Sequence record: PP989838.1
Source: Escherichia phage VTCCBPA_211
Reading direction: 5' to 3' (one strand)
DNA: 64,000 nucleotides
The stretch's first letter is position 1; each line of letters starts with the position of its first letter. This document shows positions 9,380-36,728 of this stretch, one piece after another. The position numbers were made by a program, and so were the translations under genes. The notes beneath the pieces are model-generated. The model saw nothing but the letters and a program-made list of their open reading frames with translations. It searched no databases and was not told where the DNA came from.

Positions 9380-9456
9380 GCGCCCTTAGTTCAATTGGAC
9401 AGAACATCGGATTTCTAATCCGTCGGTTACAGGTTCGAATCCTGTAGGGTGCGCCA
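9380..9456 (+). tRNA. tRNA-Arg (anticodon UCU, reads AGA), CCA encoded
   Basis: Manual cloverleaf: acceptor GCGCCCT/AGGGTGC, D arm GTTC/GAAC, anticodon loop TTTCTAA, T arm ACAGG-TTCGAAT-CCTGT, 3' GCCA. Confidence 0.9.
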
Positions 9457-22360: not shown

Positions 22361-22386
22361 GCTCAAGGATTCCAAGGAGGAAGAGC

Positions 22387-23634
22387 ATGTCAAAGATCAT
22401 TTTGGGAGACACAGGTTGTAAGGAATGTATCTCTCATGGTCGTGATAAAACCCACAACCACATGATTCTCTTCCGTAACGAAGAGACTGGTGAGGAGTGG
22501 GGAAGTTGTAACCGTTGTGGGAATTACGAAGTGTTCGAAAAGGGCACTACACCTACTCCAAACGAGAAGAAAGAGTTATCCCCTGAAGAGTTGAGAGAAG
22601 TCTTAGATGATTGCTTAGAGCTTCCTCAGGGTGAACTTACTCGCCGTTTAATCCCTAAAGCTGTATCAGAGCGGTTTGAGTGTCGTATTGGCCTCAGTCA
22701 AACTGATGGTCAGACACCAGACAGTTACTTCTTTCCTCGTGAACGTGATGGAAACATTGTCGGATACGAGGTTAAGCTGCTAGATAGTAAGAAGTTCTAT
22801 TACGTCGGCAGTGTGAAAGAAGCAGATTTGTTCGGTATGGCACAAGCTCAACGTGGAGATGTGTACAACAAGAAGCTGTTCATTTTTGAAGACCCGCTAT
22901 CCTGTATGTCAGGTTTCCATGTCCTTACAGCTTTTACAAATGCAACAAATATTAAACCAGCATGTGTTTCTTTACCGTTCGGTGCAGGTTCAATCTCTTC
23001 TGTGTTGTCTCGTAACCGAGACTTCGTAAATGGTTTTGAGGAGGTTGTGCTCTGCATGGACAACGATGATGCAGGTGAGATAGCTTTAACAAAAGGTCGT
23101 TCTTTATTCCCTCATGTTAAGTTTGCTCGTATTCCTAAAGGAACTTTCCCATACAACGGTGTGGAGAAAGAGATTAAGGATGCGAATGACATGCTTCTGT
23201 CTGGTCGTGGTCAAGAGTTATTCAACATTCTCAAGTACTCAGCAAAGCGGGAATCTCCTGCTGGAGCTGTAACAATCTTTGATTGTCTTGATGATGCTCT
23301 GAAGAAAGCGGAGTGGGGTATCCCATATCCGTGGAAGACTCTGAATGAGATGACCTTCGGTATTCGATGGGGAGAGGTGGTAGCAATTGGTGGTGGAGTA
23401 GGGAGTGGTAAAACACTCATTGCTCACGAGCTGGTTGCTCATCTGTGCTTAGAGCATGGTTTTAATGGAGGTGGCTTCTTCTTGGAAGAGAAGGTAGGCA
23501 TGTCTGTTAAGAACATTGCTGGTAAGTCAGCATCAATTCCTTTCCACCGACCTGATGTTGAATATGATGAGGAGGATTTGCGTAATGAAGCACTTCGTTA
23601 TGCAGACAAATTCTTCTTGTATGACAACTTCGGT
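22387..23634 (+). CDS. DNA primase/helicase (T7 gp4-like), exon 1
   Basis: Zn finger CKEC..CNRC, TOPRIM VLCMDNDDAGE, Walker A GGGVGSGKT; ends ..LYDNFG at a U-G splice-site pairing. Confidence 0.85.
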
Positions 23635-24355
23635 TAACACAATGGCCGAAGTAAAACTAGGTGAATTCAGGGAAAGCTAAGTCGAAAGATATGCCAATCC
23701 TGAGCGAAGCCCTTCTCCTCCTATAGCACAAGGAGGTAATTCATGAAACGAATCACAGGATACGAAAACTACACCATTTCTGAAAACGGTGAGGTTTTTA
23801 ATAACAGAGGTGCTCAATTAAAACCTTTTGTGAATAAAGGCAGAAATGAGTACTTGAGAGTGACACTAAGCTGTAGAGGGAAATCTAAACATTTTCTTGT
23901 TCACAGATTGGTTGCTCAAGAATACCTTAAAGATTTTAACCCGAATCTCCAAGTAGACCACATGGATGGTGACAGTAGAAACAACCACCACTCAAACCTC
24001 CAAATGGTTACTTGCAAAGAAAATAACTCACTTGCTTCACAAAGAGAGTGGGAAAAGGGTGGTAATCAAAAACATTCTGATGATACAGTAAGGGAGGCCA
24101 TAAGGCTTTCTCTAGATATGTCAACAGATAAGGTTGGGGAATTACTAGGTATCTCAGGGAGACAAGTCAGACGATACAGAAGTTTGACAAGTCGAAGATT
24201 TGTTGGAGAAGGGAACGTGCAGAGACTATCCGAAAGGAGTACACTGGAAGCTAATGACAGTGGAAGCGCCTAGCCCCTTAACAGGGTGATGATATAGTCC
24301 AATCCCGTGGGAAACTGCGGGCAGTAGCCATGATGCTACGGGTAAAGGAGTTGCG
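23635..24355 (+). mobile_element. group I intron in the primase/helicase gene
   Basis: P1: exon CTTCGGT pairs with GCCGAAG (U-G at the splice site); starts TAACACAATGG like the polymerase intron; GATATAGTC core; carries an HNH ORF; 3' boundary is a best guess (alternative 24340). Confidence 0.7.
23743..24273 (+). CDS. intron-encoded HNH homing endonuclease (NUMOD4-like N-terminus + HNH, 176 aa)
   Basis: GYENYTISENGEVFN; VHRLVAQEYL..VDHMDGDSRNNHHSNLQ..TCKENN; RBS AAGGAGG. Confidence 0.85.
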   Translation: MKRITGYENYTISENGEVFNNRGAQLKPFVNKGRNEYLRVTLSCRGKSKHFLVHRLVAQEYLKDFNPNLQVDHMDGDSRNNHHSNLQMVTCKENNSLASQREWEKGGNQKHSDDTVREAIRLSLDMSTDKVGELLGISGRQVRRYRSLTSRRFVGEGNVQRLSERSTLEANDSGSA

Positions 24356-24916
24356 TCCTTTATTGAATTATTGCAAAATGAATGGGAAGACATTAAACAG
24401 TGTATCCGTTTCTGGGTAGTTGAAAACCAGTGTAAGTTCATCATCCTTGATAACATTACCGCTCTGGTGTCTCATTTAACACCTTCAGAGATTAACACTG
24501 AAATCAGTAAGATTGCTTCCGAGCTTGCTGGTATGTGTAAAGAGTTAGACTTTACCGCTTTCGTGCTATCTCACCTTAATGCTCCGGCAGGTGGTGCTCC
24601 TCATGAAGAAGGTGGACAGGTACGTGAAGTACAGTTCACTGGCTCTCGTTCTCTTATGCGTTGGTGTCAGTGTATCATTGGCTTTGAGCGTGACAAGCAA
24701 GCTGACGGCTTAGCTAAGAACCTCTCAGTCATTCGATTACTGAAAGAACGTAACTACGGTCAGACAGGTGTATGTTATACTAAGTATATCAGTGAAACCG
24801 GTAGACTTGTAGAAAGGGAAGACTTTGAAGTTGATGAAGATAATCCATTCGTTTTAACTAACGGAGAGGATGCAGCTTCTCTCGTCAACCAAGCAGATGG
24901 AGCTTCACCGTGGTAA
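24356..24916 (+). CDS. DNA primase/helicase, exon 2
   Basis: Frame open from 24293; junction gives [26 protein letters not shown], aligning with T7 gp4 LYDSF..DVIILDHIS. Confidence 0.75.
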
Positions 24917-25467
24917 AGAAAAAGAAGAAAGTGTTTGCATTCGATATCGAGAGTAATGCACTGTACGATGACATAACTAAAGTATGGTGTATTTATATCT
25001 TCGATGTTGAAACTGGTGAAAGGTGGGGCTATCGGCCTCACCAAATTGAAGATGGGATTCGTAAACTTACAGAAGCAGATGTACTGGTGGGTCACAATAT
25101 TATTGACTTCGACCTTTGTGCTCTGAAGAAGATGTATCCCAATCTGATTAACTATCGTTTTAACGTCTTCGACACTTTATGTCTTAGTCGATATCTTAAA
25201 CCTGACCGTATTGGTGACAGTCCTGAGTATCCGAAAGGCGACCCTAGACGTGGCCCAAGAGGTCATGGTTTGAAGCAGTGGGGTGAGTTCTTAGGAGAGC
25301 TTAAGGGCGATTATGGTGAGCAAGAGGAAGCATGGGATGCTTTCACTGAAGATATGTTTACTTATTGTGAACAGGACGTTAACTTAACTGTTAAGGTTTA
25401 TCTTTTCTTGTGTGAGCTCACGGGATTTGACCCTTACGACCCACCTTCATTATATTGGAAAATGTAA
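24910..25467 (+). CDS. stand-alone 3'-5' exonuclease domain of family-A DNA polymerase (185 aa)
   Basis: [10 protein letters not shown] (ExoI), [10 protein letters not shown] (ExoII), YCEQDV (ExoIII), similar to the T7 gp5 N-terminus. Confidence 0.8.
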
Positions 25468-36040: not shown

Positions 36041-36728
36041 TAACACAATGGGCGTCTATAAATTCCTTTAATTCGGTGGACATCTAGAACAGATAATACC
36101 GAGCCAAGCCATCCAATCTGCCTTGAAGACAAGGAGGTGGATTATGATTTGCAGGATTTGTAAAGAAGATAAAAGCGAAGACAATTTCCACAGAAACAGA
36201 ACAAACGTGACTGGACTAGACTACAGGTGTAAAGCTTGTAGGAGAGAAGAAGCACGAATTGGAAGAGAGAGCAATTACTTCCAACACTACTGTAGAGGAA
36301 AGAAATCTGAATGTAAGATAAAGGGTTATGATTTTGACTTAACTCCAGAGTTCTTAGAAGAGATTTGGACAGGATATTGTCCAATATTTGGTGTAGAAAT
36401 CTCAAGAGCTTCGGAAGGAAGAGGATCTCACAACTCAGCACATTTGGACAGAATAGATTCAAGTAAGGGTTACCTAATAGGTAACGTATCTTGGATTAGC
36501 GGCAGAGCAAACCGTATAAAATATGATGCTACTGCTAAAGAGCTTAGATCTATTGCAGATTGGATGGAAGGTGTAACGACTAGTCGTGATGAGTTTAGCG
36601 ACGTAGGGCCAAGCGGCTCGAAACAAGGAACCTCTTAAAAGAGGAAGAGATAGTCTGCTCTGCATGGGGACATGCAGCAGTTCATAAGAGAACGGGGGGA
36701 GTGGTAGCGTACTCCCTTGAACATCAGG
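36041..36728 (+). mobile_element. group I intron in DNA polymerase motif B (T4 td-like core)
   Basis: P1: exon AGACGTT pairs with GGCGTCT; starts TAACACAATGG; ATAGTCTGCTCTGCATGGGGACATGCAGC nearly identical to the T4 td intron core as I recall it; ends ..GAACATCAGG. Confidence 0.8.
36144..36638 (+). CDS. intron-encoded HNH homing endonuclease (164 aa)
   Basis: RBS AAGGAGGTGG; N-terminal CxxC..CxxC; HNSAHLDRIDSSKGYLIGNVSWISGRANRIK. Confidence 0.85.
   Translation: MICRICKEDKSEDNFHRNRTNVTGLDYRCKACRREEARIGRESNYFQHYCRGKKSECKIKGYDFDLTPEFLEEIWTGYCPIFGVEISRASEGRGSHNSAHLDRIDSSKGYLIGNVSWISGRANRIKYDATAKELRSIADWMEGVTTSRDEFSDVGPSGSKQGTS

What the first reader, a model, noticed from the sequence alone, without database searches (positions are those of the whole stretch)
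23635..24355. A group I intron carrying an HNH homing endonuclease splits the primase-helicase gene
The gp4-like ORF stops at 23637 just after ..LYDNFG. The helicase frame reopens at 24293 and continues with ..[37 protein letters not shown], which corresponds to T7 gp4 LYDSF..DVIILDHIS.

The insert has group I hallmarks:
- Exon 3' end CTTCGGT pairs with GCCGAAG 10 nt downstream, forming P1 with the obligatory U-G pair at the splice site (T at 23634).
- It contains GAAA/GNRA-type loops (CAGGGAAAGC, TCGAAAGA).
- It has a GATATAGTC core element and further hairpins before the 3' end.
- A free-standing ORF with its own AAGGAGG RBS encodes a NUMOD4 + HNH endonuclease.

The 3' splice site must follow a G and restore the frame. 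The best candidate is G at 24355, giving LYDNFG-SFIELL. The alternative is 24340.

The first 11 nt (TAACACAATGG) and the RBS context of the ORF are shared with the polymerase intron. The two introns therefore look like relatives that have colonised two essential replication genes.
Basis: partly seen in the sequence, partly recalled or inferred. Interest (0 to 1): 0.55.

Follow-up and report, generated by a model that had tools for sequence, protein, structure and literature searches.

The report
Self-splicing intron in phage primase-helicase gene
The primase-helicase gene of this phiEco32-like coliphage is interrupted by a 739-base mobile group I intron that carries its own HNH homing endonuclease; this is a classic kind of phage element, here in a gene and phage group where none of the sequenced phage isolates searched has it.

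Summary
One error matters: the 3' splice site.

**Boundaries.** The window is a phiEco32-like (Kuravirus) phage. Its primase-helicase gene (22387..24916) carries an insertion of exactly 739 nt compared with intron-less relatives. The intron is 23635..24373. The 5' splice site follows U23634, which forms a U•G pair with G23645 in P1. The 3' splice site follows G24373, not 24355 or 24340. Removing 23635..24373 gives a 596-aa protein identical to phage EC.W2-6 primase/helicase (LYDNFG|QNEWED).

**Ribozyme.** Rfam's group I model hits both halves below threshold (32.1 and 27.7 bits, cutoff 50), because a 531-nt ORF sits between them. Ten homologous introns at the same site, from metagenome contigs, support P2-P9.2 by covariation: 97.9% of cells paired and 39 of 86 pairs compensatory. 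This includes a long-range P6 that spans the ORF.

**Endonuclease.** The ORF (23743..24273) is an I-HmuI-like NUMOD4/HNH/HTH endonuclease. Its last 69 nt double as ribozyme core.

**Novelty.** No record in a 50,697-record phage collection carries this intron or a close homologue of the endonuclease. It is a new member of a known kind. A second intron, in the polymerase gene (36041..36728), is confirmed but only loosely related.

The parts
22387..23634 (+). Exon 1 of the primase-helicase gene (416 codons: zinc-finger, Toprim, Walker A GGGVGSGKT). Ends ..TTC GGT.
   Evidence: The last base, T23634, is A in intron-less alleles (a synonymous GGA to GGT change).
23635..24373 (+). Group I intron, 739 nt, subgroup IA-like (has P7.1/P7.2, no P2). 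Begins with an in-frame UAA and ends with the terminal G at 24373.
   Evidence: Exact 739-nt insertion relative to phiEco32 and EC.W2-6. Spliced CDS is 1791 nt and in frame. RF00028 partial hits. Covariation.
23627..23652 (+). P1 hairpin: exon ACUUCGGU (23627-23634) pairs with the internal guide GCCGAAGU (23645-23652). U23634•G23645 sits at the 5' splice site. Loop is UAACACAAUG.
   Evidence: The three pairs next to the splice site (GGU/GCC) are present in all 10 homologues (helix 1).
23657..23663 (+). P3 5' strand CUAGGUG. Pairs with 24267-24273.
   Evidence: 4 of 7 pairs compensatory across homologues, already aligned correctly by unaided MAFFT.
23667..23703 (+). P4 (23667-72 / 23698-703), P5 (23676-77 / 23693-94) and P5a (23681-83 / 23688-90) with a GAAA tetraloop at 23684-87.
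   Evidence: Rfam alignment, MFE fold. P5a has 3 of 4 pairs compensatory. P4 is invariant in the family but compensated in the LAMP polymerase intron.
23710..23718 (+). P6 5' strand CCCUUCUCC. Pairs across the ORF with GGAGAAGGG at 24205-24213.
   Evidence: 5 of 9 pairs compensatory, 98.9% of cells paired.
23717..23736 (+). Hairpin that pairs the endonuclease's Shine-Dalgarno GGAGG (23732-36) with CCUCC (23717-21). Overlaps the P6 strand by 2 nt.
   Evidence: Read from sequence. A similar pairing is possible in all homologues, but it cannot covary because the Shine-Dalgarno sequence is fixed. Its role is inferred.
23743..24273 (+). Intron-encoded homing endonuclease, 176 aa: NUMOD4 + HNH_3 + C-terminal HTH. 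I-HmuI-like.
   Evidence: Pfam HNH_3 36.3 bits (cutoff 24.8), NUMOD4 26.1 (cutoff 23.4), HTH_23 20.6 (below its cutoff of 24.6). PDB 1U3E I-HmuI E=3.7e-12 over residues 2-94. Only 13 homologues in 5.8 billion proteins.
24205..24273 (+). Dual-use segment. The last 23 codons of the ORF are also P6' (24205-13), J6/7 (24214-23), P7 5' (24224-28), P7.1 (24229-31 / 24236-38), P7.2 (24242-46 / 24258-62) and P3' (24267-73). The stop codon UAG is the end of P3'.
24274..24299 (+). P8 hairpin (24275-78 / 24283-86), J8/7 AUGAUA (24289-94) and P7 3' strand UAGUC (24295-99).
   Evidence: Rfam alignment of the 3' half. P8 has 5 of 7 pairs compensatory. P7 and J8/7 are invariant.
24304..24373 (+). P9 (24304-10 / 24315-21, GAAA loop), P9.1 (24324-28 / 24335-39), P9.2 (24343-49 / 24356-62, loop GUUGCG 24350-55), and tail UGAAUUAUUG ending in the terminal G at 24373.
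24374..24916 (+). Exon 2 of the primase-helicase gene (180 codons plus stop). Begins CAA AAT GAA TGG (QNEW) and contains Walker B IILDNIT.
   Evidence: No Shine-Dalgarno sequence and no in-frame ATG lie ahead of Walker B, so independent translation is unlikely (reading).

Best explanation
A mobile group I intron (23635..24373, subgroup IA-like) interrupts the essential gp4-type primase-helicase gene between the Walker A and Walker B motifs.

**Splicing (inferred).** After transcription the RNA folds into the P1-P9.2 ribozyme. An external guanosine attacks after U23634. The freed exon 1 then attacks after G24373 and joins GGU|CAA. This yields an mRNA for a 596-aa protein identical to that of intron-less relatives.

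**Mobility (inferred).** The loop of P6 holds a 176-aa I-HmuI-like HNH endonuclease gene with its own Shine-Dalgarno sequence. By analogy with I-HmuI, the enzyme would nick or cut the intron-less allele (..TTCGGA|CAGAAC..) of a co-infecting phage. Recombinational repair would then copy the intron in (homing).

**What is shown and what is inferred.** Shown here:
- the exact boundaries of the intron;
- in-frame restoration of the host protein;
- the conserved, covarying ribozyme fold;
- the endonuclease family;
- the sporadic distribution.

Inferred: catalysis, endonuclease specificity and homing.
For: **1. Boundaries.**
- 98 related phage records match the gene. In the 30 best records listed, the match spans an uninterrupted 1791 bp.
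- Base-by-base comparison with phiEco32 and EC.W2-6 places a single 739-nt insertion between 23634 and 24374.
- The spliced CDS is in frame, 100% identical in protein to EC.W2-6, and differs from phiEco32 by 1 aa.

**2. Group I rules.** U•G closes P1 at the 5' splice site and the intron ends in G.

**3. Rfam.**
- RF00028 aligns the 5' half (P1-P6; 32.1 bits, E=3e-6 in the local scan) and the 3' half (P7-P9; 27.7 bits, E=7e-5).
- These are the only non-tRNA hits with E<0.01 in the whole window.
- ORF-less introns with 73-74% identical cores score 84-94 bits.

**4. Covariation over 10 introns at the same site** (host exon proteins down to 54-56% identity).
- 97.9% of cells are paired, against 37-43% when partners are slid.
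- 39 of 86 pairs have changes on both sides, against 5-8 when slid.
- P3, long-range P6 and P7.2 already covary in the unaided MAFFT alignment.

**5. Folding.** An unconstrained fold of the ORF-deleted intron reproduces P1, P3-P6, P7.1, P7.2, P8 and P9-P9.2, with z=-5.1.

**6. Endonuclease family.** The ORF hits HNH_3 and NUMOD4 above their cutoffs, and I-HmuI (1U3E) at E=3.7e-12.

**7. Sporadic, mobile-like distribution.**
- None of the 50,697 phage records has the intron (no place covers 80% or more of the query) or an endonuclease above 60% identity.
- The same intron plus endonuclease sits at the same site in metagenomic relatives.

**8. Changes at the junction.** Three synonymous substitutions lie at -1, +3 and +6 of the junction. 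The nearest other differences are at -196 and at +65 (EC.W2-6) or +98 (phiEco32). The -1 change (A to U) creates the required U•G pair.
Against: - No RNA or biochemical data exist, so splicing and endonuclease activity are untested.
- The Rfam score is below the gathering threshold for each half.
- The alignment used for the full pair count (A2) was fitted by hand to the structure, which inflates the percentage paired.
- P4, P7 and P7.1 never vary within the family, so they are uninformative there.
- P10 is weak: only 2 bp (CA/UG).
- The intron lacks P2, unlike the related P2-bearing subtype.
Confidence: 0.93

Rival explanations
1. A free-standing HNH endonuclease gene has inserted into the gene and split it into two separately translated polypeptides that work together. 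The flanking RNA is not a ribozyme and no splicing occurs.
For: Gene callers on the metagenome contigs annotate three separate ORFs (416, 176 and 181 aa). Phage genes split by free-standing homing endonuclease genes are a known arrangement (own knowledge). Rfam does not reach its gathering score.
Against: - About 250 nt of non-coding flank fold into a complete group I core with 39 compensatory pairs.
- The insert is removed exactly by U•G / terminal-G boundaries to give the intron-less protein.
- Exon 2 has no Shine-Dalgarno sequence. Its only in-frame start upstream of Walker B is a TTG that overlaps the 3' splice site.
Confidence: 0.03
2. It is a group I intron, but it cannot splice by itself (it is decaying, or depends on a protein cofactor or maturase). 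Primase-helicase expression would then depend on a helper or be impaired.
For: P1 is only 3-4 bp in the P2-bearing subtype, and P10 is weak. Some group I introns need protein cofactors to fold (PMC3984707).
Against: - The host gene belongs to the phage's replication module and is presumably essential (inference).
- The host exons show almost only synonymous differences from relatives.
- All core helices are maintained by compensatory change across hosts that share only about 55% exon identity, which indicates selection for a working fold.
- The window's P1 is a strong 8-bp helix.
Confidence: 0.04
3. One reading: the 3' splice site lies after G24355 (or 24340), giving [16 protein letters not shown].
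For: G24355 is followed by an open frame and would keep the reading frame.
Against: - It would add six residues that are absent from both intron-less proteins compared, phiEco32 and EC.W2-6.
- G24355 lies in the P9.2 loop, whose stem covaries.
- All homologues conserve ..UUG|CAAAA at 24371-24378.
Confidence: 0.01

Closest known systems
SPO1/SP82 DNA-polymerase group I introns encoding I-HmuI / I-HmuII (Bacillus phages)
   Same: A phage group I intron in an essential replication gene. It carries an HNH endonuclease with the same NUMOD4/HNH/C-terminal HTH layout. I-HmuI (PDB 1U3E) is the only solved structure matched (E=3.7e-12). SPO1-group records are among the best tblastn hits.
   Different: - A different host gene (primase-helicase, not polymerase) and a different host (E. 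coli podovirus).
- The protein is only about 35% identical.
- Here the ORF sits in P6 and overlaps the core by 69 nt.
- Nicking activity is shown for I-HmuI (own knowledge; PMC3984707 discusses nicking HNH enzymes) but is untested here.
Group I introns in Kuravirus and T7-like phage DNA polymerase genes (for example phage LAMP and Bas93, annotated as joined CDS; Vi06, Klebsiella and Aeromonas phages)
   Same: The same broad ribozyme family. The LAMP polymerase intron core is 78% identical to this one, with compensatory changes in P4. The shared J6/7-P7 core GTGCAGAGACTATCC occurs in 62 IMG/VR contigs, 36 of them with ATATAGTC downstream. ORF-less members score 84-94 bits on RF00028.
   Different: Those introns are in the polymerase gene, and where they carry endonucleases these are of other kinds (for example an annotated endonuclease VII). 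None of the phage records has an intron in the primase-helicase gene.
T4 td / nrdB / nrdD (sunY) group IA2 introns
   Same: Phage IA-type architecture with P7.1/P7.2. An ORF is looped out of a peripheral helix. An in-frame stop follows the 5' splice site directly. The endonuclease's Shine-Dalgarno sequence can be base-paired, as described for I-TevI (own knowledge).
   Different: - The T4 enzymes are GIY-YIG or other families that make double-strand cuts.
- This intron lacks P2.
- Its ORF runs into the catalytic core (P6' to P3').

Membership tests
Group I intron (Rfam RF00028) | P1 helix formed by the 5' exon end and an internal guide sequence, with a U•G pair at the 5' splice site | tested here: met
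   ACUUCGGU (23627-34) pairs with GCCGAAGU (23645-52), with U23634•G23645. The U•G pair and two adjacent G-C pairs are present in 10 of 10 homologues (helix 1).
Group I intron (Rfam RF00028) | The intron's last nucleotide is G, and excision restores the host reading frame exactly | tested here: met
   G24373. Removing 23635..24373 gives a 1791-nt CDS whose protein is identical to the EC.W2-6 primase/helicase.
Group I intron (Rfam RF00028) | Conserved core: P3-P8 and P4-P6 domains, the P3/P7 pseudoknot, and the J8/7-P7 consensus (..GAUAUAGUC) | tested here: met
   All helices are located. Numbers of compensatory pairs: P3 4 of 7, P5a 3 of 4, P6 5 of 9, P8 5 of 7. P4 and P7 are invariant, and P4 is compensated in the LAMP intron.
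Group I intron (Rfam RF00028) | Score at or above the Rfam gathering threshold (50 bits) | tested here: not met
   32.1 and 27.7 bits for the two halves. The 531-nt ORF in P6 splits the match. ORF-less introns with 73-74% identical cores score 84-94 bits. The ORF-deleted sequence could not be submitted to the Rfam tool.
Group I intron (Rfam RF00028) | Guanosine-dependent self-splicing | not testable with these tools
   Needs in-vitro transcription and GTP labelling, or cDNA from infected cells.
Subgroup IA (Michel-Westhof classification; own knowledge of the criteria) | Extra P7.1 and P7.2 hairpins between P7 and P3' | tested here: met
   P7.1 at 24229-31 / 24236-38 (GAAA loop). P7.2 at 24242-46 / 24258-62, with 5 of 6 pairs compensatory.
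I-HmuI-like HNH homing endonuclease | HNH (beta-beta-alpha-metal) nuclease domain with the catalytic His and Asn residues, preceded by a NUMOD4-type DNA-binding region | tested here: met
   HNH_3 36.3 bits (cutoff 24.8) and NUMOD4 26.1 bits (cutoff 23.4). The alignment to I-HmuI 1U3E conserves VDH.DG...NN..NL..VT.K.N.
I-HmuI-like HNH homing endonuclease | Site-specific nicking or cleavage of the intron-less allele, and intron homing in mixed infection | not testable with these tools
   Indirect evidence only: the sporadic distribution and three synonymous changes at -1, +3 and +6 of the junction.

The most novel reading that the evidence does not exclude
The endonuclease gene and the ribozyme may be physically interlocked so that translation and splicing exclude each other on one RNA molecule.

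- The last 23 codons of the ORF are themselves P6', J6/7, P7, P7.1, P7.2 and P3' of the catalytic core.
- The ORF's Shine-Dalgarno sequence pairs with the distal end of the P6 5' strand.

A ribosome reading the ORF would therefore unfold the core, and a folded core would hide the Shine-Dalgarno sequence. This would act as a built-in switch between making primase-helicase and making the endonuclease. The arrangement is kept in hosts whose exons are only about 55% identical.

A second, independent possibility is that the P2-less 5' end (UAACACAAUGG) was acquired by recombination with the polymerase intron in the same genome.
Probability: 0.3. Interest if true: 0.45.

Novelty: new member of a known kind. 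Interest (0 to 1): 0.3.

Why it matters
**Annotation.** Gene callers split this essential replication gene into three ORFs, as seen on the metagenome contigs. The correct product is one 596-aa primase-helicase, and the junction is now defined to the base.

**Biology.** The finding adds the gp4-type primase-helicase gene of phiEco32-like coliphages to the list of phage replication genes colonised by group I introns. The same genome carries a second intron in its polymerase gene. A small family of introns occupying one site provides a clean natural covariation set.

**Practical use.** Intron-less relatives such as phiEco32 differ at only three synonymous positions around the site. The pair is therefore a ready system for testing homing and marker exclusion by a nicking-type HNH enzyme in E. 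coli.

It does not change any concept.

Tried and rejected
- **Rfam at gathering threshold on the whole window.** It found only a tRNA. The E-value mode was needed to see the two half-matches.
- **First MAFFT alignment of ORF-deleted introns (A1).** It misaligned P1/P2, P8, P9 and P9.2. I rebuilt a structure-aware alignment with N padding. Its pair counts lean towards the structure, so I also rely on P3, P6 and P7.2 from the unaided alignment.
- **Other occurrences of TAACACAATGG** (1091 on the minus strand; one-mismatch hits including 63216). The two I read, 1091- and 63216+, have no intron features, so they are chance matches.
- **RATAGTC motif scan.** Uninformative: 13 found against 19 expected.
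- **Promoter and terminator scan of 22200-25100.** Nothing above the shuffle expectation and no internal promoter for the ORF.
- **Literature searches** for introns in phiEco32 or Kuravirus, or in phage primase or helicase genes. No report of this intron was found in the library searched. The primary I-HmuI and T7-like intron papers were not held.
- **3' splice sites at 24355 and 24340.** Rejected.
- **Intein, group II intron and split-gene readings.** Rejected on anatomy.

Full report
**What the window is.** A megablast of the split gene (22387..24916) against 50,697 phage records finds 98 records, mostly Escherichia phages of the phiEco32 group (Kuravirus, Gordonclarkvirinae), at 95-99% identity. 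In every one of the 30 best records listed, the query aligns in two pieces covering 71% of its length, and the match spans exactly 1791 bp annotated as one "DNA primase/helicase". No record covers 80% or more. The window therefore holds an insertion that no matching record contains.

**Checking the observation.**
- the gp4-like ORF ends ..LYDNFG, followed by TAA at 23635-23637;
- the helicase frame is open again from 24293, preceded by TGA at 24290-92;
- CTTCGGT (23628-34) is complementary to GCCGAAG (23645-51), with U23634•G23645;
- GATATAGTC lies at 24291-99;
- AAGGAGG (23730-36) lies 6 nt before the ATG at 23743.

Pfam gives weak Toprim_2 and DnaB_C hits, both below their cutoffs, for the two gene halves. 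For the inner ORF it gives HNH_3 (36.3 bits, cutoff 24.8), NUMOD4 (26.1, cutoff 23.4) and HTH_23 (20.6, below its cutoff).

**Exact boundaries.** Base-by-base comparison with phiEco32 (L001) and EC.W2-6 (L002) places one insertion of 739 nt. The last exon-1 base is 23633 or 23634, and the first exon-2 base is 24373 or 24374. Group I rules require U before the 5' splice site and G as the last intron base. These resolve the one-base ambiguity to an intron of 23635..24373.

Joining 22387-23634 to 24374-24916 gives a 1791-nt in-frame CDS. Its 596-aa product is identical to the EC.W2-6 protein and differs from phiEco32 gp75 at one residue. The junction reads LYDNFG|[10 protein letters not shown].

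Structurally, 24355 is the last base of the P9.2 loop and 24340 flanks P9.1.

**Is it a ribozyme?**
- *Rfam.* At gathering threshold Rfam sees only a tRNA. At E-value threshold RF00028 (Intron_gpI) matches twice. The first match is 23625-23910 (32.1 bits, E=3e-6 locally), which aligns P1, P3, P4-P5 and P6. The second is 24099-24321 (27.7 bits, E=7e-5), which aligns P7, P3', P8, J8/7-P7' and P9. These two are the only non-tRNA hits below E=0.01 in the full 64-kb scan. The model is split by the 531-nt ORF, so neither half reaches 50 bits.
- *Folding.* The intron with the ORF replaced by a GAAA loop folds without constraints into P1, P3, P4, P5/P5a, P6, P7.1, P7.2, P8, P9, P9.1 and P9.2. The energy is -94.8 kcal/mol, z=-5.1, with 0 of 200 shuffles as stable.

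**Comparative evidence.** The endonuclease has only 13 homologues among 5.8 billion proteins, the best at 94% identity. Their contigs come from Logan, ENA and IMG/VR. They show the same three-ORF layout, with the insert after ..NFG and before QN(E/D)W, in hosts whose exon-1 proteins range from 100% down to 54-56% identity to the window's.

There are two subtypes:
- a P2-less type starting UAACACAAUGG (window, L003, L079; L077 has UAAGACAAUGG);
- a type starting CAAUUGGCC with an 8-bp P2 hairpin (L005-L011, L076, L078).

All end ..UUG|CAAAA.

In the unaided MAFFT alignment of ORF-deleted sequences, three helices already show compensatory change:

| Helix | Variants seen |
|---|---|
| P3 | CUAGGUG/CGCCUAG; UUGUGUG/CGCACAA; UCAUGUG/UGCAUGA |
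| P6 (long-range) | CCCUUCUCC/GGAGAAGGG; UCCACUACC/GGUAGUGGA; CCCGUUGCC/GGCAACGGG |
| P7.2 | compensatory changes also present |

On a hand-made structural alignment (A2), the pair-counting tool gives these results:

| Measure | Observed | Control |
|---|---|---|
| Cells paired (of 778) | 97.9% | shuffled 83.0 ± 0.8%; slid 37-43% |
| Pairs changed on both sides | 39 of 86 | slid 5-8 |
| Covariation score | 0.436 | slid 0.04-0.08 |

Compensatory pairs occur in P2, P3, P5a, P6, P7.2, P8, P9, P9.1 and P9.2. A2 was fitted to the structure, so the percentage paired is optimistic. The long-range helices from the unaided alignment are the cleanest evidence. P4, P7 and P7.1 are invariant within the family. 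P4 is compensated in the related LAMP polymerase intron (UGCUGG/UCAGCA against UCAGGG/UCCUGA).

**Wider family.** The J6/7-P7 motif GTGCAGAGACTATCC occurs in 62 IMG/VR contigs, 36 of them with ATATAGTC downstream. ORF-less members score 84-94 bits on RF00028. They are 73-74% identical to the window's ORF-deleted intron, and the LAMP polymerase intron is 78% identical. The P7.1 and P7.2 hairpins place the intron in subgroup IA (criteria from my own knowledge).

**The ORF.**
- Its only match among solved structures is I-HmuI (1U3E, E=3.7e-12, residues 2-94), the HNH homing endonuclease of the SPO1 polymerase intron. The alignment conserves the VDH..G...NN..NL motif.
- In phage genomes the best tblastn matches are only 30-37% identical and include SPO1/SP82-group records.
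- The ORF starts in the loop of P6. Its last 69 nt (24205-24273) are P6', J6/7, P7, P7.1, P7.2 and P3', and the UAG stop is the end of P3'. In relatives the ORF runs on into P8 or J8/7.
- The Shine-Dalgarno GGAGG (23732-36) can pair with CCUCC (23717-21), which overlaps the P6 strand by 2 nt. An equivalent pairing exists in all homologues but cannot covary. Any regulatory role is inference.

**Signs of mobility.**
- The intron is absent from the phage collection searched but present in metagenomic relatives.
- Against intron-less alleles, three synonymous changes sit at -1 (A to U, creating the U•G pair), +3 and +6. The next differences are at -196 and at +65 or +98.
- Exon 2 has no Shine-Dalgarno sequence and no ATG ahead of Walker B. 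A functional helicase therefore needs splicing.

**The polymerase intron.** Comparison with intron-less phage SDYTW1-F1-2-2_3 confirms a 688-nt insertion at 36041..36728, with junction AKTF|IYGFLYGAG. Its ORF (36144..36638) has no Pfam hit. It shares the first 11 nt with the helicase intron, but its ribozyme is only 68% identical. The 11-mer is absent from the LAMP, Bas93 and PE006 polymerase introns. The two introns are thus members of one broad family, perhaps with a local exchange at the 5' end, and are not close copies.

**Verdict.** This is a genuine, well-supported mobile group I intron with an I-HmuI-like HNH endonuclease. Its coordinates are corrected to 23635..24373. It is a new member of a well-known kind: a new host gene and phage group, and a new endonuclease lineage. 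I found no report of it in the literature library searched. General background on phage group I introns and nicking HNH enzymes is from PMC3984707. Splicing and homing remain to be shown experimentally.

Noticed in passing
window 36041..36728: [quoted passage not shown] It is confirmed against an intron-less relative. Rfam does not detect it even at E<0.01. Synonymous exon changes next to the site (AAA ACT to AAG ACG) create its P1 helix.
   Followed up: partly
window 36144..36638: The polymerase-intron ORF (164 aa) has a Cys-rich N-terminus and an H..N..N-like motif but no Pfam hit. A DNA search of the surrounding polymerase region also matched many Pectobacterium and Yersinia phage records, but which part of the query they match was not examined.
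   Followed up: partly
window 23635-23645 and 36041-36051: An identical 11-mer, TAACACAATGG, forms the first 11 nt (P1 loop) of both introns. It is absent from the polymerase introns of LAMP, Bas93 and PE006. This may reflect exchange between introns in the same genome. The exact copy at 1091 on the minus strand has no intron features.
   Followed up: partly
L046 1612-1926 and 2204-2457 (minus strand): The IMG/VR contig that carries an L007-type helicase intron also holds two more group I introns that pass the Rfam threshold (62 and 86 bits), so this is a multi-intron phage.
   Followed up: no
L003 5170-5613: The closest intron-containing relative (Logan ERR1302956) has an Endonuclease_7 gene between the helicase and exonuclease genes. 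The window lacks it.
   Followed up: no
L080 (phage LAMP) about 1565-1856; L082 (Bas93): Other Kuraviruses carry polymerase introns at neighbouring but different sites within the same polymerase motif. Their CDS are annotated as joins. The LAMP intron appears to lack an ORF.
   Followed up: partly
window 9380..9453: A tRNA gene (67.6 bits).
   Followed up: no
L012 468-989: The most distant endonuclease homologues (P0013, 41% identity) are free-standing genes next to a resolvase-family gene, not inside an intron.
   Followed up: no
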